From IMG/VR virus record IMGVR_UViG_3300030328_001951, positions 1 through 50,454 of that record: a stretch of DNA of 50,454 nt. The stretch is one strand, 5' to 3'. A program made the translations under genes and the position numbers. Shown here piece after piece: positions 24,506 through 42,200 of the stretch (position 1 is its first letter; the number at the start of each line of letters is the position of its first letter). This DNA is from a virus. Taxonomy: Duplodnaviria; Caudoviricetes. The notes beneath the pieces are model-generated. The model made no database searches. It worked only from the letters and a program-made list of their open reading frames with translations, and was not told where the DNA came from.

Positions 24506-24582
24506 AAGAGTCTTTTTTAAATAATATTTGGAAAAGGCTGACATATGATAGCTCTGATACTGGTATGTGGCAGAGCAAACTT

Positions 24583-24617
24583 AAGGGTGGTACTGATTGG
24601 CGTTAGTGCCACCTTTT
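24583..24617 (+). terminator. Rho-independent terminator-like hairpin
   Basis: AAGGGTGGTACTGA...TTAGTGCCACCTTTT. Confidence 0.45.
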
Positions 24618-24635
24618 AACAACTAGGAGATAATT

Positions 24636-24815: not shown

Positions 24816-25029
24816 AAACGAAGTTACAAAAACAAAGGGACATAAAAGTTGTGGATTAGATAAAAAAGCTGATAAAAACATTAAACATTGTAATAAATGT
24901 AAACGTTGCTGGGAACCAGTATGTAAGCCTAATAGTTCTAAAACACAATTTTTGTGGTACGATAATTTTCCTGCGTATGGAAAGGAAAAACAAACATGTC
25001 CAACATGTCTAAACAATACAAACAATTAG
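24775..25029 (+). CDS. Zn-finger protein
   Basis: CNKCKRCWE...FPAYGKEKQTCPTC. Confidence 0.65.
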   Translation: MAHIIENFLARTTRNEVTKTKGHKSCGLDKKADKNIKHCNKCKRCWEPVCKPNSSKTQFLWYDNFPAYGKEKQTCPTCLNNTNN

Positions 25030-25148
25030 AAGAAATGTTACAAAAAGCAATAGATGGATATGATAAAATTATTACAACTAGTGCTGATAGCGGTACAATA
25101 AAACGTATTGCTCAAGAACATTTAGATAAAATAATAAAAAACAAATAA
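24996..25148 (+). CDS. 50-aa hypothetical protein
   Basis: AAAGGA RBS; fills the gap between neighbouring genes. Confidence 0.5.
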   Translation: MSNMSKQYKQLEEMLQKAIDGYDKIITTSADSGTIKRIAQEHLDKIIKNK

Positions 25149-25157
25149 AGGGAATTT

Positions 25158-25442
25158 ATGGGAAATATATTAGATACAGACCATTTTCAAAAACAAATTG
25201 AAATTGGAGAACAGTACGTTGAAAGAGCTATAAAAGGTATCACACCTGATATAGTTAGGTCAATGAATGCAGGTGAAGTTTATGAACATAACGATACTCA
25301 TCATTTATACAGCTATACTACAGATGGTATAGAATTAGAAGAAGGCGAATCTTATGTAGTATTAAAAGACAATATTACTGATGAAGAAATAGCGGTACTA
25401 TTGCTACATAAAGACAAAATATCATATCAAATGTTAATCTAG
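25158..25442 (+). CDS. Hypothetical acidic protein
   Basis: 94-aa ORF. Confidence 0.65.
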   Translation: MGNILDTDHFQKQIEIGEQYVERAIKGITPDIVRSMNAGEVYEHNDTHHLYSYTTDGIELEEGESYVVLKDNITDEEIAVLLLHKDKISYQMLI

Positions 25443-25450
25443 GAGGTTAT

Positions 25451-25648
25451 ATGAAAACATATTACTTTGAAGCTTTATGCTCTGTAACAATTGAAGTAAA
25501 CGATAGTAAACTAGATGATGATGTAATAAAATACATTAATGAAGACCCATTACATCACATTAATAAAAACCCAGATGTAACTGTACAAGAAATATTTAAA
25601 CGTACACCAGATGGGCTTGCTTGGGAAAAAATACAGGAGGTATTATGA
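25451..25648 (+). CDS. Hypothetical protein
   Basis: 65 aa, AGGAGG RBS. Confidence 0.65.
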   Translation: MKTYYFEALCSVTIEVNDSKLDDDVIKYINEDPLHHINKNPDVTVQEIFKRTPDGLAWEKIQEVL

Positions 25649-25830
25649 ACAAAAAGCAAATAAAAGAAGTCTTTAAAAACTATAAAGTACAGCTAGGTGC
25701 TGGTGCTTTAGAAGTTGTTGAAGACGAATTAAACCGTTATGTAAGAATAATGGCTGTTAACTGTAACAATGGAAACCTAAAAAGGCTTACCCCAGATACT
25801 ATGTGGGTAGCTTTAGGTAGACATGAGTGA
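25645..25830 (+). CDS. Histone-fold protein (prokaryotic/phage histone-like)
   Basis: 61 aa from the ATG at 25645 (AGGAGG RBS). Helix 1 KKQIKEVFKNY, long helix 2 GALEVVEDELNRYVRIMAVNC, loop NLKRLT, helix 3 PDTMWVAL. Confidence 0.6.
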   Translation: MNKKQIKEVFKNYKVQLGAGALEVVEDELNRYVRIMAVNCNNGNLKRLTPDTMWVALGRHE

Positions 25831-26014
25831 TAGTATAAACGATGAGGTTGCCACGCTCATACAAGAACGCCTTGATAAAGGTGCAGAAAAGTATGGGCGT
25901 GACATACCTTTAACTGATAAAAGAGATTTCTTGCAAGAATCAATAGAGGAAGCACTAGATGGTGCTATATACCTTGCATGTTTTCTTATACAAATAAAAA
26001 GGGGAATAAAATGA
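25823..26014 (+). CDS. Minimal all-alpha NTP pyrophosphohydrolase (MazG-like)
   Basis: GAEKYG...FLQESIEEALDGAIYL, an ExxEExxD motif. Confidence 0.6.
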   Translation: MSDSINDEVATLIQERLDKGAEKYGRDIPLTDKRDFLQESIEEALDGAIYLACFLIQIKRGIK

Positions 26015-26274
26015 AACTAACATATTATGTTAAAAAGCAAATAGATAGTGAAGACATTACAGACATTAATATATATGGTGCTGATATAGCTGACTATCCA
26101 GATCTCTCTGACGCTTATATAGCAAATATAACACATAAAAATGTATCTCTAACTGCAGAAGACTGTGAATCGTTACAAGAAGAAAACGATGAATGGTTTT
26201 ATGAACTAGCTTTAGAAGCAGCTAGAGAACCATTTGTAACTAGTTTACCAGATGAGTACGAACATGGGGTATAG
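26011..26274 (+). CDS. Hypothetical protein
   Basis: Likely start MKLTYY (ATGA overlap); contains a DYPDLSDAYI motif. Confidence 0.6.
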   Translation: MKLTYYVKKQIDSEDITDINIYGADIADYPDLSDAYIANITHKNVSLTAEDCESLQEENDEWFYELALEAAREPFVTSLPDEYEHGV

Positions 26275-26647
26275 GTCAGAAATAGTAGCTGGTGTACCAC
26301 TAAAAGATAGAAAAAAAGCACTAAGTATAATAAACGACTGGAATTCTGTAGGCACAGGAATGATTACTAGATTCTGGGAAAAGAATCCTGATGGTTCTGA
26401 AAGAAAACCAGAAGCATACTTTTATATGCAAGCTGATTGGTGGAAATGGTACAATGACTATCCAGAGATAGATAAATTTGAAAAGTTTATCTTAGAAGAT
26501 ACAGAAAATAGGTTTTTAACTTGTTTAGGTGAAGATGGACATCATCATACTAATTTTGGTGATTCTACAATGCATGATATTTATGTAATGTCAACTCTTG
26601 CAGTAGAAGGCAACATTAAATGGAGAAGTAAAAAGGAACAGCTATGA
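26264..26647 (+). CDS. Hypothetical protein
   Basis: MGYRSEI...WKWYNDYPEI...LGED; start uncertain (26252 or 26264). Confidence 0.65.
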   Translation: MGYRSEIVAGVPLKDRKKALSIINDWNSVGTGMITRFWEKNPDGSERKPEAYFYMQADWWKWYNDYPEIDKFEKFILEDTENRFLTCLGEDGHHHTNFGDSTMHDIYVMSTLAVEGNIKWRSKKEQL

Positions 26648-26796
26648 TAATACTAAACGTTTGGGAATGGGTGTTAAACATATTTTTATTGAGTACGTCT
26701 GCGTTTATATTTACAATTAGTATGTATATGCTAGCATTATTCTGCTATATTTTAGCAGATTTTATAAATAATTATGTAAATAAAAAACGCTATTAA
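26644..26796 (+). CDS. 50-aa membrane peptide
   Basis: AAAGGA RBS, ATGA overlap, long hydrophobic stretch. Confidence 0.55.
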   Translation: MIILNVWEWVLNIFLLSTSAFIFTISMYMLALFCYILADFINNYVNKKRY

Positions 26797-26810
26797 ACAC
26801 CCGTAAAAAA

Positions 26811-26869
26811 CGCTAGGTGAGTGTTGTATTGACTAAGGTAATAATCTGTCGATATAACGCTCCCTAGTG
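26811..26869 (+). terminator. Long hairpin at the convergence of the two arms
   Basis: CTAGGTGAGTGTTGTATTGAC / GTCGATATAACGCTCCCTAG, ~20 bp with G-U pairs. Confidence 0.45.
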
Positions 26870-26943
26870 CCTAAAAACAGTCCCATAGTCGCCTTTGTTT
26901 ACTTACCCTAAGTGTACAATATACTGTTTTTTTACACTATAGA

Positions 26944-27696
26944 CTAATCTAAGCCCATCCAACCCCTAACACTCTTAATAGCTCTTCTAGTTAATGGTTC
27001 TTGTTCTGGAGGATTAGGCTCTATTTCACCTCTAGCAACTCTAGAATCATAATCATTAAAAGCATATTTAAACAAGCCTTGATTTACGCTATCAGCGGCA
27101 GAGTTGTAATATTCAGTATTTTCAGCTACTTTATCAAACATATATTGAGTATCGTAAGGATGAATAGGATTTTTATCTCTGTAAGTAAGACCATATTGAT
27201 TAGCTCCATCGTCCTTTCCAAACATTCTTTGATTTTGACGCAATGTTTTAAAAGGAGTAAATGGTAAATAACCTTTAAATATATCCCTGTCTAGTTTATC
27301 TAATAAATTTAATTTAGGATTATATTTTTCTGCTAAATAATGATTAGGGTCAATATTTCCATGCATTCTACCAAAATGTCCTAATTCATGATTTAACGTA
27401 CCAGCACTAGCACCTTTTTGTAAAAACCCTTCATTAGTTTCTGGATAAAACACACCTTGACTATCATGTGAATGTGTTCCCTGTAATTTATCATACAATT
27501 CTGGTCTTAATCCACCATACATAGAGATCTCTCTATTATTAAGAGCATTTTTAATATCTTTAGAATAAGTTTTTCTACCTGACCTAAATTGTTGTGCATC
27601 ATATAATTTTGGATTCCAAGAATTAAATGCTCTTTTTACAAATTCTTGGTCTAATAAATGTGCTTGTTTTTCTATATCTGTTAATCCATTACTCAT
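26944..27696 (-). CDS. Zincin-like metallopeptidase, probable virion/ejection protein
   Basis: GVFYP...TLNHELGH, an HExxH motif. Directly downstream of the giant gene. Confidence 0.55.
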   Translation of the reverse strand: MSNGLTDIEKQAHLLDQEFVKRAFNSWNPKLYDAQQFRSGRKTYSKDIKNALNNREISMYGGLRPELYDKLQGTHSHDSQGVFYPETNEGFLQKGASAGTLNHELGHFGRMHGNIDPNHYLAEKYNPKLNLLDKLDRDIFKGYLPFTPFKTLRQNQRMFGKDDGANQYGLTYRDKNPIHPYDTQYMFDKVAENTEYYNSAADSVNQGLFKYAFNDYDSRVARGEIEPNPPEQEPLTRRAIKSVRGWMGLD

Positions 27697-27697: not shown

Positions 27698-30600
27698 TTA
27701 ATCTCCTAAAAAACCTTGTATGTCTTCAAATTGTTCTGTTCTACGTTTAACTCTGTCAATTCTAGATTGTATCTGATTAACAGGTAATCTTAAAAATATT
27801 TCACCTGCTCGTTCTGGCTTATCTGCAAATTGAACAAGTTGTCTTATGCCTCTTCCAAATGGGAACATAGTATAAGCAGTATAACTACTAAACTTTTCCC
27901 AGTCACCAGTCAGCAGCTCCCATGCTGCATCAGGTATTCTAGCAACAGGAGGTTTCAACAAGTTTAATGCTCCTAGCTTGCTACCAAAAAATGCCATTTC
28001 TTTTTCACGCTTATCACCATATAAACTATCTGCTATAGATTGTACAGTATCTAAAGGTGGTGCTAAAGCTGTATCAAATATGCTAAACATAAATGCATTA
28101 GCTAATGCAAACATAAACATATCTATCATATATGTATTTTTAAATTTTTCATATTCTGGAGTGTTTTGTTTAAAACCATATAACTTAGCTTGTCTGTAAA
28201 ATTCTTTTCTTGTTCGTACTGAGTTCCAAACAAAAAGCTTAAACCTAGATAATACTTTACCAACAGCAGTTCTCATAAATGCTGGTCTTGCAGAATTTTG
28301 ATAAAGAAATTGAGTATTCTCTATACCTTTCATAGCCATGTCAAACACAAATGGGTCTGCTATAGACAATTCTTTACCCTCAACTCCAAATTTTTTAACA
28401 GCTTGTAATGCATGTGCAGTAAACGCATTTAAACGATTTATGCGTTCAGAGTTCTGCATAAAAAATGAACCATACTTAACCATTAAATCTTTTACACCAT
28501 ATCTATTAATAACTTCTAATGGTGTTTCTTTGCGATTTGCTTTATCTTTTATTGCTACAATTAAATCTCGTTTAAAATTTTCTATATTTATTCCAGCTTT
28601 TTTTAATCCATTAGTCATTTGAGTATTTACTTCAAATTCATTCTGTATAAAAGCATCAATAACACCTACCTCTGCTAGATGTTTTAACAAGTCTTTTCTA
28701 TTCTTAGCAAACTTTCCGTTATTTAATTTAATAACATCTTTACCATTGCTAGTTAATAACAAATCATAAATTTGTTTATTATTATAACTACTAAATAAAT
28801 TATTTAATCCTGCACTAGCAGCAGTCATAGCATTACCACTAAGTACATTAGTAGCCCATGTGCCAGTATTGGCTAGTAAGCTCATTAATTGATACTGGGC
28901 TTCCATCCTACCTAATTCATGTAATTTACGACTAAAGTACTCCTTTCTTGCCTCTTTTCCTTTAGGAGCATGAGTAAAAAAGGGAGCTGACATGTTTTTC
29001 TTTTGATAAAACTTTTCAAATATACCTATAACATTTTCATCTGATGTTAAATAAAACAAATTTCTTTTGTCTTTTAATTTTAATGGATCTCGACCACTTA
29101 ACATTCCTGATTGAAAATAAGATTGATGTCCTAATATACTTTGTAAATATAATTTTATATAATCCCCCCATACTTGAACATCATTTTTATAAACACTACC
29201 TTGTAATCTTTTTACTTCCTTTTCACTAGGTTTATAATTCCTATTTTTATTTAACATGTTATCTATTTCGTATTGACCTTTAATAGCAACAGCATTTTTA
29301 TAATAACCTCTAATAACTTTATTAATGTAATCTAAAATAACTTCTGGTCTTTTATCAAATCCTGGCGCATTAGCATCTCTAGCTTTTAAAACATTAGCTA
29401 AACTACCTTGCTCAGATACAGATGATTTTAAATCTGCTTCTGTTAATATAGCAGGTTCTACTAATTCAGAATAACTAAAAAATTCACCTGCTTGTATTAA
29501 TTTGTTTTCATTAGCTCTAACAAATTCTTTTGCTGCTTTTGCTGCTTTTTTACCTGACTCCTTTTCTGAAAGACCTGCTCCTTTAGCTTTTTTATAAGTA
29601 GCGTCATATATATCATTTGTTTTTTGCTCTAAATATAATGCTATTTCTTTTCTAGCAAATTCATTATATCCAAAATTCAAATGAGGCATGTACTTATCTA
29701 AATTAATTTCACCAATACCTTTATATTTTTTTCTCATACTTACTCTATAGGTAAGATTATCATTTTCTGGTTTATTTAATATAAGTCTTTCAAGTTTATG
29801 TTCTTTTTGGTATCTTTTAATTCCATCAGTACCAACTATATCAATAACTTCCTTTTTATTTATATTACCACTTTCAATAACACTTTTTCTAAAATGCTCT
29901 AAATCCATCTTACCTGATTTATCCCATCTCATATATTTATTTAAAACACCACCTGTAGCCTGATACCAGCCTAAAAAATCTTTATCCATAATCCATTCAC
30001 CTTGATTATTGGTAGCTTTATTTCCTTTAGCATCTTGAGTGTATATCCACTTTTGCATGCCTTCAAATAAATCTCTTCTAGCTGTATCTAATTTTTCTAA
30101 CGTTCTTAATGTTTTAGCATCAGTAGGTCTATAACCTTCTTCTACGTATTTAAATAAATCTTCCATTAATTTACTTTGCTGGTTAACATCAAAGTTTTTC
30201 AATATTCTTTCAAATGGTTTAAACAATTTTGTTTCTGCAAACTTTAAATCTTTACTTACATAGCGTTCAGATGTTTGTAAATATTTTGCTATTTCTCCAA
30301 TAGGACTAGTAAAACTAAATATAGGTTTTGTTTCAAACTTACCTTTACCTATTTGTACTTTACCAAAATAAGAAAAATACTTATTAATTAAACCCTTAGT
30401 AGATAACTTTTCATCAACAAACCTTGGGTCAAGAAACCAATACTTTAATTTAAATTCTAAATTGTATGGGTCTTGCAATCCTTTAAAATATCTATTAACT
30501 GCAATAACATCATTCATATTAAATGTTGTTGCTTCTCTTGGAACAATACCACCTTTAATAATTGAAGTAAAATACTCAAACCATTGTTCAAAATTATTCT

Positions 30601-33600
30601 TAACTACTCTATGTTCGTTAAGATTCTTTCTAAATTGTTTTACTTGTTCTAGTTGCTTATCATTTATAGCTAGTTTTTCTATAGCATCACTTGCTATCAT
30701 TTCGTTAATAGTTAAAAACTCTTCTTTAATTGGCTGCTTTTCTGCTGCAGTTTCTTTTTTAATAGGTTCTTTTCTTACGACACCAACACCTTCTAAATTA
30801 ACTCTATCTGTAGGTTTAGAACCTTTCATATTAGTTCTTCTAAATGTTATATTTATTCTTTCACCTCTTTTACCTGTAGGGTCTTTAGGTATTGAATGTA
30901 AAAAATTCTCTTGAGTTCCACCTTGCATTATTAACAAATCATTATTTTTTAAATTTATCTTATAATCCTTACCACCTTTTTTACTTGTTAAAATAAAAGG
31001 TACTTCTGCTCCAAAACTAACAGACGCTATAATAGGATTACTTCCTAATTCTGGTTCATTATCTGCATGTTTTCCAATGCTATCCTTACCAGTTCTATAT
31101 TTATTTACCAGTAAAGAATTAAATTCTACTCCAGTAAGTTCCTCTACTTGTTTTTTTAAAGCTAATAACTCTGGTGTAAATTTCTTTGGTTTTATAGGGT
31201 CTTTACCAGAATAAGAATAATCAGTACCTTTTTCTCCATAGTACGCTGTAAGTCTAGGTTCTTTTATATTCCTACCTCCTATTGTAATATACCCTTGTTC
31301 AAAATCAATTGATTTAACCAACGCTTCTACATCTATATTCTTAATCTTATCTTTTAAGTGAAGAATTTGTTTATTTTCATATGTAGTTATAGGGTCTTCT
31401 GGATTTTTTTCTTTTACAATTTTTATAGGATTATTATCTAATAATGCAGTATCTGTTTCTGCTGAACGTTCATGCATTGATTCCATTTTTTGATAAAAGT
31501 TTTTCTTTGTAGAAAATGGTATAGATAATGAACTATGTATATCTTTATAAAATGTATTTTTAGAAAACTTAGAACCCTTATATGCTTTCTGTCCTGTTAT
31601 AGGACTTAATAACAAGTTATGATAATAATCAAGAAACAATTTAGGATCTATTCCAAATTCATTTGCATTTTTAATTAATCGTTTATTAAAAGCATTTATA
31701 TCTGCTTCTACATCTAATTGTATTCCATCTTTATCTAGCTTATGTCTATTCTCAATACTTAATCTAGACTTTAACATCTTTACTTCTTTTACAATAGCAG
31801 GTATTACTTTTTCTATTACATTAGCTTTTATACCTTTATCGCTAAATGCTTTATGTATATCAATAAAATTTTTATTTAACAATTCTATTGTAGCAAAGTT
31901 ACCTAATGATTTACCTATGTAATCTAATGCTCTACCTATATTTCTTTGTTGTTGTATAGCATAACTTACTTGAGAAGGAGATGCTAAACTTAAATCAGAT
32001 AACAATAAGCCAAGGTGTTGTTCTATAAATTTTGACATTTCTTTTGTACTATATCTAGTCAATCCTGTAAACCCTTGTGATTCTATATCAGCATTAGAAT
32101 ATAATTTTTTATAATTATTTTGTATCGCTGGAAAATTTAAAAAATCGTATTGAATACCAGCATCGTACATCTTTTTTACTATCTGAGGTATAACAGTATC
32201 TGCTCCTTTAGCAAACAATTTAGATTGTACGTTATTTATGCCATGACCAACATCATATAAACTCATAGCACTTTTAGCTACAGGAGTTGATTGATACCTA
32301 GCATTACCTAAAACTAAACCTTTAGGATTTTTGCTTTTTTTATCTTGTTCAATCATTCTCCTACTAACATTCTCTAACCTAATTAAAGAATATGTTTTAT
32401 TATTTCTAACATAATTAGCTCTTTCACCAACAGTTAATCCAATATTTTTAGATATTTCTGGAGATACATTATCTAAAGCAATATCTTTAATTAATCTATA
32501 AGATACGTTTTTAACTTGAGAAGCAGGCTTAGCAATATTAACAGCGTCTTTTATTGCTGCTAAGTCACCAAACGGAGCTAACTCTAGTATGCTTTTATAT
32601 CCTATATAATCTTGAGTTACTTCACCAGTTTTTGTATCAATAGTTTCTTTTTTCTCACCTGTTTTAGCATTAAAACTTTCGACTTTAAACAAAGAATCAA
32701 ATAACATTTGTCTAAAAATAGGATAAGCTCTTATCGTAGGGTCTGTACTTGCATCAGCTGATTTATTAACAATAGCTGTACCTAAATCTCTAAAAAATTG
32801 GTCTCTAGTTTGACCTTCTATCTTTCCCTTTTTTAAAGATACTCTGGCAATATAATCAGTTAAAGAACCCTTTTCTAAATCTTGATAAGGAAACTCAACA
32901 CTACCTCCATTGTTAGCTATAAAATCTCTCCAGTTTTGCATTACGATTTTAGCACTTAAACCATAACCCAAACCACCTTTACCAGCTATACTATTCTGTG
33001 CAACTTTATGTCTATATGCAGGGCTAAACATAAACATTCTATTGTAAACATCATCTTCTCTATTATATTCTTTATCTTTTGGATTTTTGTTATAACCAGT
33101 AAAGCGTTGAACTTCCTTATCAGTCATACCTTCTTGTCTAAACAATTTGTTTATAAATTTGTCATAAGAACTTCCTTCTTTCCAATGACTTCTCTCATCC
33201 TTTACTTTAATATAATAGTCTCTTAAATTTTTATTAAATCCTTGGAATATTTTGATACTGTCTGCGTCTTTGTCTGCACCTCCAAGGTATATATTATCCT
33301 TGTGGTGCGTGAACGAGCCAGAGCCTCTTTGCCCTGTAAAACCCCTAAAGCGTAAGACCCTCGTGCCAGACATACTATCAGCAGGAGTGCGAATGACAAC
33401 GAGGTCAAATGTGTTATTCCACGCCTCAAGGTTTTTTCTGGAGTAGTTCCCAAGATATTGCTCCCAAGCTTCGCCCAACGTGACTCGCTTGTCGATAGTT
33501 TCCATAGTAGCTTTGCTATCATTTTTTTGTGCATATTCTAATTTCCTTTGGTATATGGCTTCTAAATCTTCTTTAGGTATGTGCTTATGCTCTACAAGCA

Positions 33601-36600
33601 TACGCTTAAACATATTATCTAAATATAAATCTCCTTCATTTAATCCTTTCTTTTGTTCTTTTGTTAATGCAGGGTCAACAATCTTATTAATTAATTGGTC
33701 AGGAGTATAAGCTTTTAACCAAGACTTACCAGCAGTCTCAATAAATGGATTAGCATATCTCTTTACTAAATATTTCTTTAATGCATTATGGTAATTGTCT
33801 CTAAACAAAACATTTCTTACTGCATAAGTACCAGCCATAGCTTCAGCTAATATTTTATTACTTGCATGAAACTCTCTATAGTTACTATTAGAATCAAATT
33901 CAAAATCTAAATCTAAAAATCCATCTGTTTCTAATCTCATTAACTTATCCATAAACTTTTTAGCTAATGGTGTGCTAGGGTCTTTTAATAATATCTTAGT
34001 TACAAAATCCATAGGTAGCTCCATTACACCTAATTCATTTGCTTCAAATAACTTTATAAATTTTTCTATTTTTTTAGGGTCATATTGTTTTACTAACTCT
34101 TGACCAGCTCTACTACCAGCTAAAGATCTATCTAAAACATCACTTATATATTCTTTAGCAAATCCCTTTGCTTGTATATTATTTGTTTGCCCATAAGACT
34201 GCAATGGTAACTCATCGCCTTTTACAGACTTTACAGGATTTTCATACGTACCTGTACTTACTTGTAAATGTTCTATAGGTAACGTATGAACAATTGTGCC
34301 TCTAGATGATAATTTACCAGTAGAAGAATCTATTGATAACTGAGATGATTTTAAATCTCCTCTAAGCTTTGCACCAGAATTAAATACAATAAAATCTAAA
34401 CCTCTACTTTCCATAAATTTATTCCATTCTGTAGAAGCTCTTTGACCATTAGATTTAGTAAACAAAGCAGATAAACCTGTTTGCCCTCCTATTACAGGCT
34501 TTATATGACCTGCTCTAGGGTCAAAACCTAAAACATCTAATGTTCTATCAAAAAATTTATGTGCTATAATTAAACCACCATCAGTATCACTTTTACCTGT
34601 AGTGTTTATATCATTAACTATTATACCTCTCATCTGTCCATCAGGATTAGTTTCAGCATAACTAGCTTTTTGCATTGGTGCCATTCTATTTGTTAATAAT
34701 GTCATTCTTTTATTTAAATCAGCTACTGATTTTCCATAACCTTCATGCATAAGTAAGTTTTTTAAATTTAAATTTCTTACAGTAGTTTGATTATTTACTA
34801 ATCCATTTAACATAGCATGATGTAAAATATTACTTACCCATTTTCTTTCATAGTTTTTATCACTACCAAATATATTACGCTCAGAAGCTTTACCGTCTTC
34901 AAATGCTCTTTCTATGCCCTTAGATTCTAAAGGGTCATTAGACATAGCGTTTTTAATCATATCTTTTGTAACAATTACCCCTTGTAAATTATCTACAAAA
35001 TCTGCTGTTAATAAAAAGTCTTTATCTTTAACACCACTAAATATATATTTACCTTTTTCAGCTAATGCTTCTTCTATCTTAATTAATTTTTTTCTACCCA
35101 CATTAAATGAAATGCCATCTCCATCCATTCTATGTGATAATACTTTGTATGGTTCACCATTTTTATCTACACCATGTGTTAAAAATCTAAAACCTTTTGC
35201 GTATCCTAAATAATCTAATGGCATCTTATCATACTTTTCACCAATAGATACATTATTAATTTGTTCATTCTTTGTAAAATCAACAGATATATTATTACCT
35301 GTACCTTCTATAAAAAATGCAACTTCTTGTGCAGGTTCTGTTTCAGTCCACCATTTCTTGCGAAGATTTCTTTCATGTTTTTTAAATGTCTCTGGGTCTA
35401 AATTAGATTTTACATCTTCTATATAAGATTCTAATCGTCTATCTGTACCATCTTCACCCATGCTTTTTTTAGTAGCATCAATTATTATTTTTTCAAAAGA
35501 ATCAAAATCTTTGTATACAACAGAATCTTTTTCATTCTTTTTTACATCTTTATATACTTCCTTAGTAATATTAGATATAGAATCTTTTTCCTTAGTATAG
35601 GGATCCATAAAATCACTTTGCATTTCTGCATATAATTGTTCTGATGTACTTACTGCATTAGCAATTTTACCAAATGCATCGACAGTCATACCTTCTCTAG
35701 CTTTCCATCTGTAATATTCAGCTATCTTTGTATTTTTACCTGCCTCACTATATGTATTCCAATTAGGGTCTATTGATTCATAATGTTTAATTGCAGCATT
35801 TCTCCAATTAAAGTTTTTATAATTATGTTGTAACCAACCTAATGCACTACCTGTTGCACCTTCTAATTGTTCAGAGTTTTTAAACGAGGGAGCTGGATGT
35901 TCATTTAAAATATAATCCTGTGCTTTTTTATCTATAGTATTCCAATCTTTAGATTGTTGTGGGTCTACTATGTCTCTTATGTCTCTAGTAAATCCATTCT
36001 TTTTTGAACCCATTATCCACTCACCAGCAGCAGCTTCTCTAGCTGGTCTAGTATTGTATCCAAAAAACCCACCCAATAAATACTCATATATTTGCATCTC
36101 TGTGGGGTCACCTCTTAGGGTACTAGGTAATCCCATAAAAGCAGATGCTACACTAGCTCTTAATATTTTATTAGCTTGGTCTACTTGTGCGGGAGTACCT
36201 TTATATAAATTACCTACAGATACAAAATTACCTATACCTCCAAAAGCTCCACCTGCTATAGCACCACCTACAAAAGAATCAGCTATAACATCAGAACCTT
36301 TCCATATATTACTTACAGCACTAGCTACACCTAAACCTAATGCTTCTGTTCCTATGGCTCTAGGTATTGCTCCTTTTTTTAAATAATCTATTGTTTCTAA
36401 ACCTCGTTTAGATAATTGACTATCTATAATATTCTTTGTACCTCTTTGAAACATCATAGGTACAGACATAGCATCTAAGGTATTAATACCATCTTCAATC
36501 GCTTTATATAGCTTACTATCACCTTTAATTTTTCTTAAAGCAGCATTACGTCTAAATAAAGATAATGGAGCTTTTAAAATCGCAGGAGCAAAACCTGCAA

Positions 36601-36871
36601 GATGACCTAGTTGCCTAAATATAGCTTCACCTGTATTGCGTGGTTCTTTAGGTACTAAATCAAAAGTAGTAAGACCTTCTATAAACCCAGACTGCGCTTG
36701 TTGCACAGCTCTGGTAAGACTAAAATTATCTTCTAGTCTTTTAAAACTTACTTGGTTGTTTTCTGCTAAACGTTCCAGCTCATCAAGCTGGTCGTCAGAA
36801 AACATATCAGGATTAGACCTGTATGTGTTGATTAGGCTTTGTACTTTAAAGCCATCGTAATAGTTATCCAA
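27698..36871 (-). CDS. Giant internal virion protein: two-barrel (DxDxD) RNA polymerase + inserted AlkB dioxygenase + C-terminal ejection-protein domain
   Basis: 3057 aa. DTDGG, RTPADS and LGGADKDADS polymerase motifs; AlkB HAD...H...RINITFR; Gly/Ala-rich N-terminus; C-terminal TQFLYQ...RFKLF typical of large ejection proteins. Confidence 0.75.
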   Translation of the reverse strand: MDNYYDGFKVQSLINTYRSNPDMFSDDQLDELERLAENNQVSFKRLEDNFSLTRAVQQAQSGFIEGLTTFDLVPKEPRNTGEAIFRQLGHLAGFAPAILKAPLSLFRRNAALRKIKGDSKLYKAIEDGINTLDAMSVPMMFQRGTKNIIDSQLSKRGLETIDYLKKGAIPRAIGTEALGLGVASAVSNIWKGSDVIADSFVGGAIAGGAFGGIGNFVSVGNLYKGTPAQVDQANKILRASVASAFMGLPSTLRGDPTEMQIYEYLLGGFFGYNTRPAREAAAGEWIMGSKKNGFTRDIRDIVDPQQSKDWNTIDKKAQDYILNEHPAPSFKNSEQLEGATGSALGWLQHNYKNFNWRNAAIKHYESIDPNWNTYSEAGKNTKIAEYYRWKAREGMTVDAFGKIANAVSTSEQLYAEMQSDFMDPYTKEKDSISNITKEVYKDVKKNEKDSVVYKDFDSFEKIIIDATKKSMGEDGTDRRLESYIEDVKSNLDPETFKKHERNLRKKWWTETEPAQEVAFFIEGTGNNISVDFTKNEQINNVSIGEKYDKMPLDYLGYAKGFRFLTHGVDKNGEPYKVLSHRMDGDGISFNVGRKKLIKIEEALAEKGKYIFSGVKDKDFLLTADFVDNLQGVIVTKDMIKNAMSNDPLESKGIERAFEDGKASERNIFGSDKNYERKWVSNILHHAMLNGLVNNQTTVRNLNLKNLLMHEGYGKSVADLNKRMTLLTNRMAPMQKASYAETNPDGQMRGIIVNDINTTGKSDTDGGLIIAHKFFDRTLDVLGFDPRAGHIKPVIGGQTGLSALFTKSNGQRASTEWNKFMESRGLDFIVFNSGAKLRGDLKSSQLSIDSSTGKLSSRGTIVHTLPIEHLQVSTGTYENPVKSVKGDELPLQSYGQTNNIQAKGFAKEYISDVLDRSLAGSRAGQELVKQYDPKKIEKFIKLFEANELGVMELPMDFVTKILLKDPSTPLAKKFMDKLMRLETDGFLDLDFEFDSNSNYREFHASNKILAEAMAGTYAVRNVLFRDNYHNALKKYLVKRYANPFIETAGKSWLKAYTPDQLINKIVDPALTKEQKKGLNEGDLYLDNMFKRMLVEHKHIPKEDLEAIYQRKLEYAQKNDSKATMETIDKRVTLGEAWEQYLGNYSRKNLEAWNNTFDLVVIRTPADSMSGTRVLRFRGFTGQRGSGSFTHHKDNIYLGGADKDADSIKIFQGFNKNLRDYYIKVKDERSHWKEGSSYDKFINKLFRQEGMTDKEVQRFTGYNKNPKDKEYNREDDVYNRMFMFSPAYRHKVAQNSIAGKGGLGYGLSAKIVMQNWRDFIANNGGSVEFPYQDLEKGSLTDYIARVSLKKGKIEGQTRDQFFRDLGTAIVNKSADASTDPTIRAYPIFRQMLFDSLFKVESFNAKTGEKKETIDTKTGEVTQDYIGYKSILELAPFGDLAAIKDAVNIAKPASQVKNVSYRLIKDIALDNVSPEISKNIGLTVGERANYVRNNKTYSLIRLENVSRRMIEQDKKSKNPKGLVLGNARYQSTPVAKSAMSLYDVGHGINNVQSKLFAKGADTVIPQIVKKMYDAGIQYDFLNFPAIQNNYKKLYSNADIESQGFTGLTRYSTKEMSKFIEQHLGLLLSDLSLASPSQVSYAIQQQRNIGRALDYIGKSLGNFATIELLNKNFIDIHKAFSDKGIKANVIEKVIPAIVKEVKMLKSRLSIENRHKLDKDGIQLDVEADINAFNKRLIKNANEFGIDPKLFLDYYHNLLLSPITGQKAYKGSKFSKNTFYKDIHSSLSIPFSTKKNFYQKMESMHERSAETDTALLDNNPIKIVKEKNPEDPITTYENKQILHLKDKIKNIDVEALVKSIDFEQGYITIGGRNIKEPRLTAYYGEKGTDYSYSGKDPIKPKKFTPELLALKKQVEELTGVEFNSLLVNKYRTGKDSIGKHADNEPELGSNPIIASVSFGAEVPFILTSKKGGKDYKINLKNNDLLIMQGGTQENFLHSIPKDPTGKRGERINITFRRTNMKGSKPTDRVNLEGVGVVRKEPIKKETAAEKQPIKEEFLTINEMIASDAIEKLAINDKQLEQVKQFRKNLNEHRVVKNNFEQWFEYFTSIIKGGIVPREATTFNMNDVIAVNRYFKGLQDPYNLEFKLKYWFLDPRFVDEKLSTKGLINKYFSYFGKVQIGKGKFETKPIFSFTSPIGEIAKYLQTSERYVSKDLKFAETKLFKPFERILKNFDVNQQSKLMEDLFKYVEEGYRPTDAKTLRTLEKLDTARRDLFEGMQKWIYTQDAKGNKATNNQGEWIMDKDFLGWYQATGGVLNKYMRWDKSGKMDLEHFRKSVIESGNINKKEVIDIVGTDGIKRYQKEHKLERLILNKPENDNLTYRVSMRKKYKGIGEINLDKYMPHLNFGYNEFARKEIALYLEQKTNDIYDATYKKAKGAGLSEKESGKKAAKAAKEFVRANENKLIQAGEFFSYSELVEPAILTEADLKSSVSEQGSLANVLKARDANAPGFDKRPEVILDYINKVIRGYYKNAVAIKGQYEIDNMLNKNRNYKPSEKEVKRLQGSVYKNDVQVWGDYIKLYLQSILGHQSYFQSGMLSGRDPLKLKDKRNLFYLTSDENVIGIFEKFYQKKNMSAPFFTHAPKGKEARKEYFSRKLHELGRMEAQYQLMSLLANTGTWATNVLSGNAMTAASAGLNNLFSSYNNKQIYDLLLTSNGKDVIKLNNGKFAKNRKDLLKHLAEVGVIDAFIQNEFEVNTQMTNGLKKAGINIENFKRDLIVAIKDKANRKETPLEVINRYGVKDLMVKYGSFFMQNSERINRLNAFTAHALQAVKKFGVEGKELSIADPFVFDMAMKGIENTQFLYQNSARPAFMRTAVGKVLSRFKLFVWNSVRTRKEFYRQAKLYGFKQNTPEYEKFKNTYMIDMFMFALANAFMFSIFDTALAPPLDTVQSIADSLYGDKREKEMAFFGSKLGALNLLKPPVARIPDAAWELLTGDWEKFSSYTAYTMFPFGRGIRQLVQFADKPERAGEIFLRLPVNQIQSRIDRVKRRTEQFEDIQGFLGD
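33223..33534 (-). CDS. Candidate overprinted (+1 frame) 103-aa basic membrane protein
   Basis: AAAGGA RBS 9 nt before the ATG, local GC3 shift in the host frame, one hydrophobic helix. Confidence 0.45.
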   Translation of the reverse strand: MHKKMIAKLLWKLSTSESRWAKLGSNILGTTPEKTLRRGITHLTSLSFALLLIVCLARGSYALGVLQGKEALARSRTTRIIYTLEVQTKTQTVSKYSKDLIKI

Positions 36872-38990: not shown

Positions 38991-39242
38991 TTACTCCGTA
39001 TTTAATGTTAATGACGCTTTAGCCCAGCCTTCGCTAGTTCGTCCTTGTATTTCATAAGATGTTCCATCGTTAGACTTAACTACTCTAATGTCACCTTCCT
39101 TACCTGATGATTCTTCTTTATCAGTAACAGTATCTCTACTATTTACTGCACTAATAAGCTCATTTAAATCATCATAAATTGTATCTACAACTCTTTGTAG
39201 ATTAGTATCGTTTACTTTTTGTGAACGTTTTTTACTTATCAC
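38991..39242 (-). CDS. Small tail-associated protein
   Basis: 83 aa, directly after the nozzle gene. Confidence 0.5.
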   Translation of the reverse strand: MISKKRSQKVNDTNLQRVVDTIYDDLNELISAVNSRDTVTDKEESSGKEGDIRVVKSNDGTSYEIQGRTSEGWAKASLTLNTE

Positions 39243-42200
39243 GACATAGCCTTTGTTCTTCTTAATCTTCTAAACACAAGTCGTAATGCATCTATCGTTG
39301 CACTTGAATCACCAGTAACTGCAATTTTTACTTGTGCATGGCGTGATATTTTTTTATTTGTTAACGCTGTATAACTAGTACTGTTTTCAGCAGTATTTAC
39401 TGTTATTGTAGGGCTATTATCTTCAGATAGTATTTCGACTTTATATAATTTTTTATCTGTAGTAGACTCACCCATTGTAAATTTTTTACTATACCATTTA
39501 AAATTATCTAACCTTGTAGAACTTTTAGGGTCAAAAGGTTGAATTAATCCATTGTCTGTATCAGATACTAATAACTCATTGTTTTTGCCATGTACTGCAC
39601 CATACGTATTAAAATCTGTAGTTGTACTGCTATTAGTTCTATTCCATACATCCCATCTATTTTTAGGCATTGTATACACTAAACACTGAGGCACGTAATA
39701 TGTTGTGTTTGTAGTAAATGTAAGCGTTGAAACAGCTGTAGCTGTTGCATTATTATTTATATCAAATCTATTATCATTATCAACACTAGCAACTTTTGTA
39801 TCTGCAGGAATATGATTTCCTGTCACTACTTGATTTGGAGCAATGTTTGAATTTGCAACATCAGATGTTACAGTAGTATCATTATTAGTTAAATTGCAAC
39901 TATGTGTAAAACTAGTTGATACAGTATATTTATAAGTGTAGAAAAAACAAAAAGCCTTACGATGTGAATCATAAGTAGCTACAATATCTCCAGAATAATC
40001 ATCAGTACTATAATTGCATAGTTTTTCTAAAGATGAATATGAATTATAAGTATCATCTATTTGATGAGCTTTTTTAATCTTAGCTCCAATGTCATTAATA
40101 CCCTGTCCGTTATGTAAATAGATACTATTCTTATCTATAAAACACATACCTATTTCTGAGGACACTACTCCATTTTGATTTCTACACCCTATACCTTTTA
40201 TAGTATCTTCTATATACATACCATCTGGATTAACTACATATGTCTCATTTTCAGAAAACACATACAACCTACCATTAAACGATTCCATTGCAGTTGCTTT
40301 ATTAGGTAATAATAAAAAGTCTTTAGCCCAATTAAATTGGTCAAAATTGAATGGTCTAGATTTAAACAGATAATTAGTTGCATCATCTATATCTGCATGC
40401 GAACAATCTGTTATGTATAAAAAATTATTTACTTTAGCACTTAATCCATATTTAGGCAATGTAATAGTTAATGCCTCTGATATTCCAGTCCTAGCCTCAT
40501 AAGATGCATATGATGCTCCACTATCTATAATAGTTTTACTATAATAACTACCCCAATTTGGATTAGTAGTACTTGAATCTGTAGCAAGCCACCCTGATTT
40601 TAAAGGTACTGATTTTATTAATCTAAAAAATCCTGATGGTTGTGTAGCAGTTCCAACACTTGCACTTGACCTATATAGATTAACATGAGTTACTCTTTTA
40701 CTAAGATTTGCTTTATATATATCTATTTTAACATTTAAAGCATCTTGACTTATACTGCCATTATCTATATGAGTCCACGAAGATAAAGGAGATTCTTGAT
40801 AACCATCATAGGTAAAAGATGTTGCGTAAAATTGATCATGCGATGGATTTATACTTCCATCCACATCTGCATTATCTGATATTGTTAATACAACTTCTCC
40901 TTCGGCTTTTATTGCTAAAGCACCAGATGCTCCTGCAGCCCATCTTGCTTGACTCGTTCCAGCAAATACATTATATGAATTACTTTTTTCATCTAAAACT
41001 GCATCATCTATATCTATATTTGCTCCTATTGTATTTCTTGTCCCACCAACAATACTTGTTTGACTATGATTATAAGCAACTTTAGTTAATCTATATAAAG
41101 TAGATTGACTTCCACTAGTTCCTCTTTCTATCCAATTTAAATACGTGCTATTTGTATCTTGCTTTGTTAAATAAACAGAACCAAATGCTGCATTAAAATC
41201 AGAACTAAACGCATAAACTAAACCTTTATTTCCTAAATGATTTAATTTATCATTTGCAGTTATATCATTTTTAACAACTTGTAAAAAATATCTTATTTGA
41301 CCTTTAACACTACTAGCATTAGTAGTTGAATCATCGTGACCTATAAAATTTGTACCACTACCATAATACCACTTTACATAAGCGCCATCAGGAACTGGCT
41401 TTACAACTATTCCAATATAGTCATTACTTCCTGTAACTCTAACTAAAGGTAATTTTGGTAGTGAAAAATCTGGAGCTATAGTTGTATCACCTGTAAGACT
41501 TGAACCCCAATCGCCAATATTAGGTGAAACACTTGAAGCATCTGCTCCTTTATAAGGAGTTCTACTTGTAACAGTACTAGCACTTGAACTTGTTGTTAAA
41601 TTTGATACAGAAATATTCCATAAATAATCACTAGAAGTACTTCTGTTTCCACTTGCTAACCATAATACGCTACCACATTCCATTATATCTGTTACATAAG
41701 TATCTCCACTAAAATTATTTAATGGTCTACTAGTAATAACATCCATATTATCTAAATCAATTTTTAAAACAATAAGATTGCTACTAACTTCATCAATTAC
41801 CCAAAGATTGTTATCACTAGATAAACACATTGCTAATGTTTTTGTAAAAAAATATTCTGACCTTCTTATTAATACTCCTTTAGAAACATCAAATTTATAT
41901 ATATAATTTCCACTTTGTTGTATTCCGTAAACATGTGTGTTATTTGAATCATTAACAACTGTATGCATAGCAGGGAATGGGCTAGGCTTTACTAATTCAG
42001 CATTTTCAGATTGTAAACCACTTGGAACAGAACCTCCAAATTGAGAATGAGGAATATTACCTACCCATTTAACATCTTTAGATTGCCCTAAACCAATGTG
42101 TACTTCTTTATTATTTGTTTGCATAGCTGGAATTGTACCAGCACCAAGATCACTTGCATCTAAATTAGATATTGCAGGACTTCCAGTATATACATCTGCT

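What the first reader, a model, noticed from the sequence alone, without database searches (positions are those of the whole stretch)
30833..31330. Intact AlkB (ALKBH2/3-type) dioxygenase inserted in the injected RNA polymerase
Seen: EPRLTAYYGE...YSYSG...FNSLLVNKYRTGKDSIGKHADNEPELG...IASVSFGA...LLIMQGGTQENFLHSIPK...RINITFR. The HxD...H iron triad and RxxxxxR 2-oxoglutarate motif are complete, and Lys/Pro/Glu-rich linkers flank the domain. Established: AlkB enzymes oxidatively demethylate m1A/m3C in ssDNA and RNA, and are fused into replicases of some plant RNA viruses. Inference: a DNA-phage parallel, in which a repair or demodification enzyme is packaged and co-injected with the polymerase. 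It could fix alkylation acquired in the free virion, clean nascent RNA, or erase host defence marks. I know of no described virion RNAP-AlkB fusion.
Basis: partly seen in the sequence, partly recalled or inferred. Interest (0 to 1): 0.9.

Follow-up and report, generated by a model that had tools for sequence, protein, structure and literature searches.

The report
AlkB repair domain inside phage RNA polymerase
An uncultured marine phage carries an intact AlkB-type DNA/RNA de-alkylating enzyme spliced into its giant crAss-phage-like RNA polymerase, and the module comes and goes between near-identical phages, which suggests a swappable accessory tool used at the start of infection.

Summary
Window 27698-36871 (minus strand) is one 3057-aa ORF. 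Residues 1844-2011 are a strong AlkB domain (Pfam PF13532, E 1.6e-29). The best solved relative is human ALKBH3 (E about 1e-25 to 1e-27), and the iron and 2-oxoglutarate residues are complete.

The "RNA polymerase" label was untested and now has support. An RxP...GGADxDxD motif is invariant in 106 of 106 homologues. A confident AlphaFold model of residues 530-1400 matches the crAss-like phi14:2 virion RNAP (Foldseek E 4.4e-10) and QDE-1 (Z 18.5). Virion packaging and injection remain inference.

New here:
- AlkB is a clean 200-aa in-frame cassette that is missing from a 98.6%-identical relative.
- It occurs in 18 of 111 giant proteins surveyed (17 of them family members), at about six backbone positions.
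- Seven AlkB+/AlkB- pairs share 93-98.6% identity.
- Both alleles were assembled from one sample.
- The fused AlkBs form one clade under purifying selection.
- At least one relative carries a DUF4326-like module at the same linker.

An assembly chimera is excluded. My best reading is an accessory single-strand/RNA dealkylase delivered with the early polymerase. No description of such a fusion turned up in the literature searches.

The parts
27698..36871 (-). Giant ORF of 3057 aa with a TTG start aligned to the Met of homologues (P0001)
   Evidence: 105 homologues of 1868-3230 aa from marine metagenomes.
35285..36871 (-). Conserved N-terminal region (res 1-529) with Gly-rich hydrophobic segments at 88-106 and 168-213
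   Evidence: Conservation, hydropathy. The ESM Atlas gives only viral hypothetical proteins plus a weak LPD22 lead.
32672..35284 (-). Two-barrel RNA polymerase core (res 530-1400)
   Evidence: AF2 pLDDT 86.9, pTM 0.85. Foldseek 6vr4_A E 4.4e-10, QDE-1 about 1e-5. VIA-align QDE-1 Z 18.5, 6vr4 Z 13.2 over 673 residues.
33365..33394 (-). IRTPADSMSG (res 1160-1169), the R-x-P strand that precedes the catalytic loop
   Evidence: R1161, P1163 and G1169 are invariant in 106/106.
33260..33283 (-). GGADKDAD (res 1197-1204), the DxDxD metal-binding motif
   Evidence: D1200, D1202 and D1204 are invariant in 106/106.
30818..31417 (-). 200-aa AlkB cassette (res 1819-2018), present or absent between near-identical relatives
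30839..31342 (-). Pfam PF13532 AlkB domain (res 1844-2011)
31055..31072 (-). KHADNE: iron ligands H1935 and D1937
   Evidence: Aligned to the ALKBH3 H-x-D. Conserved in 13/13 aligned fused AlkBs.
30884..30904 (-). FLHSIPK: third iron ligand H1992
30839..30859 (-). RINITFR: 2-oxoglutarate-binding R2005...R2011
27701..30754 (-). Conserved, mostly helical C-terminal region (res 2040-3057) with a TM-like segment at 2914-2932. Fold not recognised.
   Evidence: AF2 pLDDT 72.3. No Foldseek PDB hit at E<=1e-3. Hydropathy.

Best explanation
SHOWN: the 3057-aa protein is a single-chain two-barrel RNA polymerase of the crAss-like gp66 / QDE-1 kind, flanked by large conserved N- and C-terminal regions. 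It carries, in the linker after the polymerase module, an intact ALKBH3-like Fe(II)/2-oxoglutarate dioxygenase domain that is under purifying selection. The domain is a mobile in-frame cassette. One AlkB lineage has been placed at about six positions of this protein family, and it is gained or lost between proteins that are 93-98.6% identical. INFERRED: like gp66 of phi14:2, the polymerase is packaged in the virion, ejected with the DNA and transcribes the early genes, probably from a single-stranded or opened template. AlkB then refolds in the cytoplasm, loads Fe(II) and 2-oxoglutarate, and oxidatively removes N1-methyladenine/N3-methylcytosine-type alkyl lesions. It would act on the single-stranded template and/or the nascent early RNA next to the polymerase, before any phage gene has been expressed. 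It is an optional accessory that helps under particular conditions, not a core function. Where the lesions come from (chemical alkylation or a host enzyme) is open.
For: AlkB identity and intact residues. The ALKBH2 substrate-contact residues R110/Y122/F124/S125 (named in PMC2790896 section 13) align to R1873/Y1885/Y1887/S1888. The aromatic base-flipping finger F102, which that section says is needed for dsDNA and is absent from the ssDNA/RNA enzyme ALKBH3, aligns to G1865. Purifying selection: dN/dS is 0.03 (L021 vs L011, dS 0.076) and 0.10 (L037 vs L068). RNAP: the motif is invariant in 106/106; model and fold matches are. The closest solved relative, gp66, transcribes ssDNA or denatured DNA but not dsDNA in vitro and makes the rifampicin-resistant early transcripts (passages of bioRxiv 10.1101/2020.03.07.982082). 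Selection for physical linkage: AlkB sits at sites near res 1819, 1270, 1351 and 1411, inside the C-terminal region and after the N-terminal region. None of the 5 AlkB-positive loci among 75 related IMG/VR loci has AlkB outside the giant gene. No stand-alone AlkB occurs in 4 of 4 whole records of AlkB-less relatives. The fused AlkBs form one clade with support 0.987. The gene lies on the same strand block as terminase, portal, capsid, fibre and endolysin genes.
Against: Nothing here shows virion packaging or ejection. The N- and C-terminal regions match no known ejection protein. AlkB is absent from 94 of the 111 giant proteins surveyed, so it is dispensable. N1-A and N3-C are protected in duplex DNA, so a packaged dsDNA genome should carry few such lesions. 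Rapid gain, loss and cargo swapping are more typical of conflict genes than of repair genes. Substrate preference is inferred from one aligned residue. Some bacterial AlkBs act on etheno adducts rather than methyl bases (abstract of PMC2790896). No common early-promoter motif was found, although gp66 early transcripts also lack one.
Confidence: 0.5

Rival explanations
1. Counter-defence cargo. The polymerase is a delivery chassis, and AlkB (like the other inserts) erases a host-imposed base modification on incoming phage ssDNA or RNA, or strips marks from host nucleic acids such as tRNA or protective methylation. In this reading it does not repair chemical damage.
For: Presence/absence polymorphism occurs at 93-98.6% backbone identity in seven pairs at three sites, and both alleles were assembled from one sample. 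AlkB is swapped for a DUF4326-like module at identical boundaries in P0065/P0064. A second DUF4326-like insert lies near res 1074. DUF4326 is proposed to process ADP-ribose derivatives in virus-host conflict (passages of PMC9503650). Iyer et al. proposed resetting of methyl marks for the sporadic AlkB of jumbo phages (passage of PMC7824862). BFVD fold matches include crAss-like giant proteins auto-named 'ART-PolyVal-like domain-containing'.
Against: I know of no bacterial defence that writes m1A/m3C-type marks on phage nucleic acid (recalled, not searched exhaustively). ALKBH2/3-type enzymes are not known N6-methyladenine DNA demethylases (recalled). Both DUF4326 hits fall just under Pfam's cut-off (24.3 and 23.1 bits against 25).
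Confidence: 0.3
2. AlkB acts late and in cis in the producing cell, for example on replication or packaging intermediates. The fusion only provides co-expression. The protein is either not ejected or AlkB is inactive after ejection.
For: The gene sits in the late/structural strand block. There is no direct evidence of ejection.
Against: A free-standing gene would serve this purpose, yet every AlkB found in this phage group is inside the giant gene, and at several sites.
Confidence: 0.1
3. The domain is a catalytically dead structural spacer or a neutral passenger.
For: It is dispensable in most relatives.
Against: The iron triad, 2OG arginines and N-x-Y are kept in 13/13 aligned fused copies down to about 43% identity. 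dN/dS is 0.03-0.14.
Confidence: 0.05
4. Assembly chimera: the AlkB segment was joined into the gene by mis-assembly.
For: None beyond the insert being absent from the closest relatives.
Against: A 7527-nt contig from a run of a different study spans window 30300-31900 with 5 differences (X2). A 687-nt contig in X5 covers 30774-31460 across both junctions. The same architecture occurs in independent assemblies. Insert GC is 0.288 against 0.304 for the rest of the gene.
Confidence: 0.01

Closest known systems
gp66 virion RNA polymerase of crAss-like Cellulophaga phage phi14:2 (PDB 6VR4)
   Same: Giant single-chain two-barrel RNAP with a DxDxD catalytic loop, encoded among structural genes. It is the best Foldseek match (E 4.4e-10) and aligns over 673 residues (Z 13.2).
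   Different: No detectable sequence similarity. The phage here is about 50 kb, and its terminase and portal are at most 26-27% identical to any deposited phage, so it is probably outside Crassvirales. It has extra conserved regions of about 530 aa (N-terminal) and 1000 aa (C-terminal). No AlkB is reported in gp66 in the text I read (passages).
QDE-1 / RDR2 RNA-silencing polymerases
   Same: Highest structural Z-scores (18.5 and 15-18) over about 450-530 residues. They share the R-x-P...DxDxD second barrel.
   Different: These are eukaryotic cellular enzymes with no AlkB and no virion context.
P23-45 gp96, a virion RNAP fused to the tape measure protein (PMC10770324)
   Same: It is a precedent for a two-barrel virion RNAP built into a giant ejected structural protein (abstract and passages). 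VIA-align Z is 10.
   Different: Siphovirus tape-measure context. No accessory enzyme cassette is described ('alkb' occurs 0 times in the main text).
AlkB domains in replicase polyproteins of plant RNA viruses (Flexiviridae; PMC2553587)
   Same: AlkB is embedded in a viral polymerase polyprotein. One acquisition was spread by recombination, and the proposed role is removing methyl damage from single-stranded nucleic acid (abstract).
   Different: Those are RNA viruses of plants with an RdRp of an unrelated fold. Here the carrier is a DNA phage's two-barrel RNAP, with several insertion sites and presence/absence polymorphism.
Human ALKBH3/ALKBH2 and bacterial group 1B AlkB
   Same: Best sequence matches. 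The iron triad, 2OG residues and nucleotide-recognition-lid contacts are conserved. The closest free-standing proteins are about 190-220 aa, 43-54% identical, several from Bacteroidota.
   Different: The domain is fused inside a 3057-aa protein and lacks the ALKBH2 aromatic finger. It is not an E. coli AlkB equivalog.
Polyvalent proteins of phages and conjugative elements (Iyer et al. 2017, PMC5512222)
   Same: Large virion-associated multidomain proteins that combine enzymes predicted to act on entry.
   Different: 'AlkB', '2OG' and 'dioxygenase' occur 0 times in that paper's main text; its supplements were not visible. Here the scaffold is an RNA polymerase and the cargo sits in internal loops and linkers.

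Membership tests
AlkB family 2OG-Fe(II) dioxygenase (Pfam PF13532) | Profile match above the curated cut-off | tested here: met
   104 bits against 31.2, E 1.6e-29, profile positions 14-194 of 194.
AlkB family 2OG-Fe(II) dioxygenase (Pfam PF13532) | H-x-D...H iron-binding triad | tested here: met
   H1935, D1937 and H1992 align to the ALKBH3/ALKBH2 triad. Kept in 13/13 fused copies.
AlkB family 2OG-Fe(II) dioxygenase (Pfam PF13532) | 2-oxoglutarate-binding R-x-N-x-T-x-R and N-x-Y | tested here: met
   R2005...R2011 and N1923/Y1925.
AlkB family 2OG-Fe(II) dioxygenase (Pfam PF13532) | Oxidative dealkylation activity | not testable with these tools
   Needs an enzyme assay or alkB complementation.
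ALKBH2/3-like (bacterial group 1B-like) subtype | Closer to ALKBH2/3 than to E. coli AlkB, with lid residues R110/Y122/F124/S125 conserved | tested here: met
   ALKBH3 E 2e-27 and ALKBH2 2e-20; no E. coli AlkB chain is listed. TIGR00568 scores 33.4 bits against a 231 cut-off. The lid residues align to R1873/Y1885/Y1887/S1888.
ALKBH2/3-like (bacterial group 1B-like) subtype | Aromatic finger (ALKBH2 F102) for dsDNA base flipping | tested here: not met
   The aligned residue is G1865. This resembles ALKBH3, which PMC2790896 section 13 describes as inactive on dsDNA.
Two-barrel (double-psi beta-barrel) RNA polymerases, single-chain gp66/QDE-1 type | Invariant DxDxD metal-binding loop preceded by an R-x-P strand | tested here: met
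   R1161, P1163, D1200, D1202 and D1204 are invariant in 106/106.
Two-barrel (double-psi beta-barrel) RNA polymerases, single-chain gp66/QDE-1 type | Overall fold of the catalytic core | tested here: met
   Predicted model only: pLDDT 86.9. 6vr4 E 4.4e-10 and QDE-1 about 1e-5. Z 18.5 for QDE-1 and 13.2 for 6vr4. BFVD matches to giant proteins of crAss-like phages.
Two-barrel (double-psi beta-barrel) RNA polymerases, single-chain gp66/QDE-1 type | Sequence-level homology to a characterised member | tested here: inconclusive
   Neither phmmer nor a 43-sequence profile against PDB sequences hits the RNAP part. No Pfam or PHROG hit outside AlkB.
Two-barrel (double-psi beta-barrel) RNA polymerases, single-chain gp66/QDE-1 type | RNA synthesis activity | not testable with these tools
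   Needs in vitro transcription.
Virion-packaged (ejected) RNA polymerase | Presence in virions and rifampicin-resistant early transcription | not testable with these tools
   Only context is available: same strand block as the structural genes, and hydrophobic conserved segments.
Crassvirales | Hallmark capsid, portal and terminase related to crAss-like phages, with a genome of about 90-105 kb | tested here: inconclusive
   The genome is 50.4 kb and complete by CheckV. The best TerL and portal hits in 50,697 phage records are 22-27% identical and not crAss-like. No dedicated crAss profile was run.
Polyvalent proteins (Iyer et al. 2017) | Large virion-associated protein that combines several effector or enzyme domains | tested here: inconclusive
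   Two enzyme modules (RNAP and AlkB) are here. Relatives add DUF4326-like inserts. There is a weak LPD22 lead for the N-terminus. Virion association is unproven.

The most novel reading that the evidence does not exclude
The ejected polymerase of this uncultured marine phage lineage is a modular delivery chassis. Its surface loops and linkers carry interchangeable nucleic-acid 'eraser' or processing domains: AlkB, a DUF4326-like phosphatase, and possibly ASCH-like and nucleotidyltransferase-like modules. These arrive with the first centimetre of DNA and neutralise a host defence that chemically marks invading single-stranded DNA or early RNA. This would imply an as-yet undescribed bacterial immunity based on N1-A/N3-C-type base alkylation.
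Probability: 0.2. Interest if true: 0.9.

Novelty: new variant of a known kind. Interest (0 to 1): 0.74.

Why it matters
Virion RNA polymerases are the first phage enzymes to act in an infected cell. A base-dealkylating enzyme built into one, at several independent positions and segregating as a presence/absence allele in natural populations, suggests that alkylated bases in single-stranded DNA or RNA are a real obstacle at the earliest step of infection in the ocean. The source could be chemistry (for example marine methyl halides, recalled) or a host defence. The finding also extends QDE-1/crAss-type single-chain polymerases to a phage lineage of about 45-50 kb outside the known crAss-like phages. 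It further shows that such polymerases can serve as carriers of accessory enzymes. Finally, the natural AlkB+/AlkB- pairs at over 96% identity are ready-made controls for experiments.

Tried and rejected
**RNAP part, sequence searches**
- Pfam, PHROGs, and PDB sequence searches (phmmer and profile) gave nothing outside AlkB.
- tblastn of the N- and C-terminal parts against 50,697 phage records found no match.

**C-terminal region**
- The fold has no Foldseek PDB match at E<=1e-3. A T7-like 'core protein' row at E 0.13 is not evidence.

**Early promoters**
- A direct-repeat scan of 13900-27000 gave only weak two- to four-copy families, so I claim none.

**P0227, a second AlkB-bearing giant protein**
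- blastp shows no backbone similarity.
- hhalign aligns exactly R-x-P...DYDGD, but at E 0.13 and probability 0.45%, so this is a lead only.

**Other inserts**
- ASCH for the P0097 insert: Pfam E 0.1, 13.7 bits, below cut-off. P0139 gave no ASCH hit.
- The nucleotidyltransferase-like motif in P0099 was seen by eye only.
- The P0074 and P0077 inserts have no Pfam hit.

**Neighbouring genes**
- 8 of 10 have no Pfam family.

**Host**
- The only genome-collection hit is a 46-kb contig in a Prochlorococcus single-cell record, at 28% identity. That is too distant to assign this phage's host.

**Tools and limits**
- Supplements of PMC5512222, PMC7886860 and PMC7824862 could not be seen and might list AlkB in giant phage proteins.
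Full report
**1. What is at the coordinates**

Window 27698-36871 on the minus strand is a single open frame of 3057 codons.

- Pfam finds exactly one family in the protein: 2OG-FeII_Oxy_2 (PF13532), residues 1844-2011, 104 bits against a cut-off of 31.2, E 1.6e-29.
- PHROGs finds only phrog_21963, 'alkylated DNA repair'.
- Against PDB sequences the best matches are human ALKBH3 (E 1.2e-25 with the whole protein, 2e-27 with the domain alone) and then ALKBH2 (about 1e-18 to 2e-20). No E. coli AlkB chain is listed.
- NCBIfam's E. coli-type equivalog models score far below cut-off: TIGR00568 gives 33.4 bits against 231.
- The iron triad (H1935, D1937, H1992), the 2-oxoglutarate motif (R2005-x-N-x-T-x-R2011) and N1923/Y1925 are all present and aligned to the ALKBH3/ALKBH2 residues.

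**2. It is a true insertion, and not a chimera**

- Against the three closest homologues it is one clean gap of 200-203 residues with colinear flanks. These are P0002 (98.6% identical over 2857 aligned residues), P0003 and P0004. The gap is P0001 residues 1819-2018, window 30818-31417.
- At DNA level about 604 nt of the window replace 4 nt of IMG/VR locus L002, with 89-91% identical flanks.
- Insert GC (0.288) matches the rest of the gene (0.304).
- A run from a different study (X2) holds a 7527-nt contig spanning window 30300-31900 with five differences.
- Run X5 holds both forms. A 687-nt contig covers 30774-31460 across both junctions at depth about 10. A 1477-nt contig joins 30803 to 31423, skipping 619 nt with 19 other letters between, at depth about 31. 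Its shorter side is 29 nt, just under the tool's caution line.

The two alleles also coexist in one sample.

**3. Is the host protein an RNA polymerase?**

Sequence methods say nothing. No Pfam, PHROG or PDB-sequence hit lies outside AlkB, even with a 43-sequence profile, and tblastn finds no match in 50,697 phage records.

A search of the large protein collection with residues 1-1830 returned 105 homologues of 1868-3230 aa, mostly from marine metagenomes. In the alignment of all 106, the segment VIRTPADSMSG...GGADKDAD carries R1161, P1163, G1169, D1200, D1202 and D1204 invariant in 106/106. This is the R-x-P strand plus DxDxD loop that marks the catalytic double-psi beta-barrel.

An AlphaFold2 model of residues 530-1400 with that alignment is confident (pLDDT 86.9, pTM 0.85).

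- Foldseek against the PDB ranks the virion-packaged RNAP of crAss-like phage phi14:2 first (6vr4_A, E 4.4e-10). QDE-1, plant RDR2, the AR9 non-virion RNAP and cellular RNAP large subunits follow.
- VIA-align gives QDE-1 Z 18.5 (494-532 residues aligned) and RDR2 Z 15-18. The Thermus-phage non-virion RNAPs score Z 13.5, 6vr4 scores Z 13.2 over 673 residues, and the P23-45 tape-measure-fused virion RNAP scores Z 10.
- BFVD matches are giant proteins of uncultured marine viruses and of crAss-like phages.

The polymerase assignment is thus supported by motif and predicted fold. Enzymatic activity and virion packaging are not shown.

**4. The phage**

- The window is a whole IMG/VR virus record of 50,454 bp, rated 100% complete by CheckV.
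- The two end-cut minus-strand ORFs join in frame across the record's ends into a 2177-codon open frame. The record is therefore a circularly permuted complete genome.
- It encodes terminase, a P22-like portal, a major head protein, fibre-like proteins, an endolysin, a metallophosphoesterase and a primase-helicase.
- The giant gene lies in the long minus-strand block with the structural genes. A 12-kb plus-strand block holds replication genes and small ORFs.
- Terminase and portal are at most 26-27% identical to anything in the phage collection, and the best hits are not crAss-like.
- One distant family member (28% identity) lies on a 46-kb contig of a Prochlorococcus single-cell record. This is too distant to name the host here.

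**5. Distribution of AlkB in the family**

AlkB occurs in 13 of the 106 proteins. A second search restricted to giant proteins with AlkB gave 14 hits, 5 of them new. Four of those five are family members, so 17 of 110 family members carry AlkB, and 18 of the 111 giant proteins surveyed do. Five of 75 related IMG/VR loci have AlkB, always inside the giant gene.

Mapped onto P0001 coordinates by blastp, the domain sits at these positions:

| Site | Position in P0001 | Proteins |
|---|---|---|
| 1 | about 1819 | P0001, P0009, P0010, P0013, P0065, P0085, P0086, P0228, P0229 |
| 2 | about 1268-1272 | P0054, P0057, P0089, P0076 |
| 3 | about 1350 | P0061 |
| 4 | about 1411 | P0066 |
| 5 | between 2600 and 2653 | P0230 |
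| 6 | between 319 and 763 | P0231 |

Sites 2-4 are separated by well-aligned segments that contain the invariant R1287 and D1373, and in the model sites 2 and 3 fall in loops. Sites 5 and 6 rest on 21-33% identical alignments and are less certain.

On the backbone tree the AlkB+ proteins are scattered tips next to AlkB- sisters. Pairwise identities over the aligned backbone:

| AlkB+ / AlkB- pair | Identity | Site |
|---|---|---|
| P0001 / P0002 | 98.6% | 1 |
| P0013 / P0015 | 98.1% | 1 |
| P0009 / P0014 | 96.4% | 1 |
| P0054 / P0035 | 97.7% | 2 |
| P0057 / P0043 | 96.3% | 2 |
| P0061 / P0060 | 96.3% | 3 |
| P0065 / P0064 | 93.0% | 1 |

No AlkB is found anywhere in 4 of 4 whole records of AlkB-less relatives, three of them at least 90% complete.

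In a tree of the 18 fused AlkBs plus the 120 best free-standing hits, all fused copies form one clade with local support 0.987. The clade also holds P0139, a 299-aa fragment that is itself a piece of a larger protein. Two caveats apply: the free-standing set was chosen by similarity to P0001's domain, and the root is a midpoint root.

All 13 aligned fused copies keep the catalytic residues. dN/dS is 0.03 (L021/L011, dS 0.076), 0.10 (L037/L068) and 0.12-0.14 for window against L021/L011, where dS is saturating.

Taken together, one AlkB lineage has been shuffled among positions of this protein and is repeatedly gained or lost, while its activity is kept under selection.

**6. Other cargo**

The site-1 linker is empty in many proteins and carries different inserts in others.

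- P0064 differs from P0065 by swapping AlkB for a module that hits DUF4326 (E 4.9e-5, 24.3 bits against a cut-off of 25).
- An unrelated 114-aa insert near residue 1074 is present in P0043, P0054, P0057, P0089 and P0090. Scanned in P0043, it also hits DUF4326 (E 1.2e-4, 23.1 bits).
- Iyer et al. describe DUF4326 as a rhodanese-phosphatase clade, often fused to Macro/NADAR/SLOG domains and proposed to process ADP-ribose derivatives (passages of PMC9503650).
- An ASCH-like reading of the P0097 insert is not significant. A nucleotidyltransferase-like motif in P0099 is by eye only.
- P0227 is a 2370-aa protein with AlkB and a YRSP...GDYDGD segment. It may be a second polymerase family with the same fusion, but the profile alignment is not significant (E 0.13).

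**7. Mechanism**

Shown: an intact, selected ALKBH3-like domain sits inside a two-barrel RNAP as a mobile cassette.

Inferred: the protein is ejected with the DNA and transcribes the early genes, as shown for phi14:2 gp66. That enzyme transcribes single-stranded or denatured DNA efficiently, but not M13 double-stranded DNA and only weakly the native phage genome, in vitro. It also accounts for rifampicin-resistant early transcripts (passages).

The ALKBH2 lid residues that contact m1A-DNA are R110, Y122, F124 and S125. They align to R1873, Y1885, Y1887 and S1888. The aromatic finger F102, needed on dsDNA and missing in the ssDNA/RNA enzyme ALKBH3, aligns to G1865 (section 13 of PMC2790896).

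A single-strand/RNA dealkylase tethered to a polymerase that reads single-stranded template is a coherent unit. It would clear m1A/m3C-type blocks from the template or the first transcripts before any phage gene is expressed.

Several facts argue against a pure repair role. AlkB is dispensable, duplex DNA protects N1-A and N3-C, and the turnover pattern looks like that of conflict genes. I therefore put co-transcriptional dealkylation at 0.5. Within that, the source of the lesions is open. A counter-defence eraser role is the main rival at 0.3.

**8. Comparison with the literature**

- Full-text searches for AlkB with 'virion RNA polymerase' returned 2 papers, neither on a fusion.
- AlkB with crAss-like and RNA polymerase returned 1 irrelevant paper.
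- AlkB with 'polyvalent proteins' returned 1 paper, the jumbo-phage survey, which mentions sporadic free-standing AlkB.
- A broader five-term search gave 172 papers, of which 20 were listed; none concerns a phage fusion.
- 'AlkB' occurs 0 times in the main texts of the polyvalent-protein paper, the P23-45 paper and the crAss-like cMAG paper.
- Supplements were not visible, and subscription journals are not covered.

Within those limits the fusion appears undescribed. It is a new variant of known kinds: a virion-type two-barrel RNAP, an AlkB domain, and polyvalent-protein logic. It closely parallels AlkB in plant-virus replicases, where one acquisition also spread by recombination (abstract).

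**9. Limits**

- There is no experimental evidence for any activity or for packaging.
- The N- and C-terminal regions remain unassigned.
- Structure matches rest on predicted models.

Noticed in passing
window 1-2351 and 46287-50454, minus strand: The two end-cut ORFs join in frame across the record's ends into a 2177-codon open frame, a fibre-like protein with Laminin_G_3 and sialidase N-terminal domains and phrog_8510 repeats. The 'linear' record is therefore a circularly permuted complete genome with no terminal repeat.
   Followed up: partly
relatives P0064 (res 1841-1925) and P0043 (res 1071-1132); the ~1074 insert is also in P0054, P0057, P0089, P0090: DUF4326-like modules are inserted at two different positions of the same polymerase family, both just under Pfam's cut-off. 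P0054, P0057 and P0089 carry this insert and AlkB on either side of the DxDxD loop.
   Followed up: partly
P0139 (299-aa fragment); P0097 res 1771-1899; P0099 res 1768-1931: The site-1 linker holds other cargo. One is a domain shared by P0097 and P0139 (weak ASCH hit in P0097 only, E 0.1), which sits in tandem with AlkB in P0139. The other is a P0099 insert with a GS...DIDIL nucleotidyltransferase-like motif, seen by eye.
   Followed up: partly
P0227 (2370 aa): A giant protein unrelated by blastp has AlkB at res 848-1068 and YRSP...GDYDGD near res 1880-1945. It may be a second two-barrel polymerase family with the same fusion, but hhalign E is 0.13.
   Followed up: partly
L077 = L041 (46,061-bp contig): A distant family member (28% identity, no AlkB) lies on a contig of a Prochlorococcus single-cell genome record. 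This is a possible host hint for part of the lineage.
   Followed up: no
window 30774-31460 in run X5: AlkB+ and AlkB- alleles were both assembled from one sample, at contig depths of about 10 and about 31. Contigs break at the junctions as in an assembly-graph bubble.
   Followed up: partly
window 39239-42460, 42453-43214 and 43229-43627, minus strand: Upstream of the polymerase lie a 1073-aa protein with no family hit, a metallophosphoesterase (phrog_221) and a 132-aa endolysin-like protein (phrog_465). In other phages, enzymes of these kinds near giant internal proteins can be ejection or cell-wall-piercing components.
   Followed up: no
BFVD matches to the RNAP-core model: Giant proteins of crAss-like phages that match the polymerase fold are auto-named 'ART-PolyVal-like domain-containing', 'NTF2 domain-containing' or 'DNA helicase'. 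This hints that crAss-like polymerase proteins also carry accessory domains.
   Followed up: no
P0232 (920 aa) and P0233 (1423 aa): The best AlkB matches among 1.84 billion representatives are mid-length proteins. P0233 equals the C-terminal 1400 residues of the giant family with AlkB at site 1, so it is a split or truncated form. P0232 has an unrelated 695-aa N-terminal part.
   Followed up: partly
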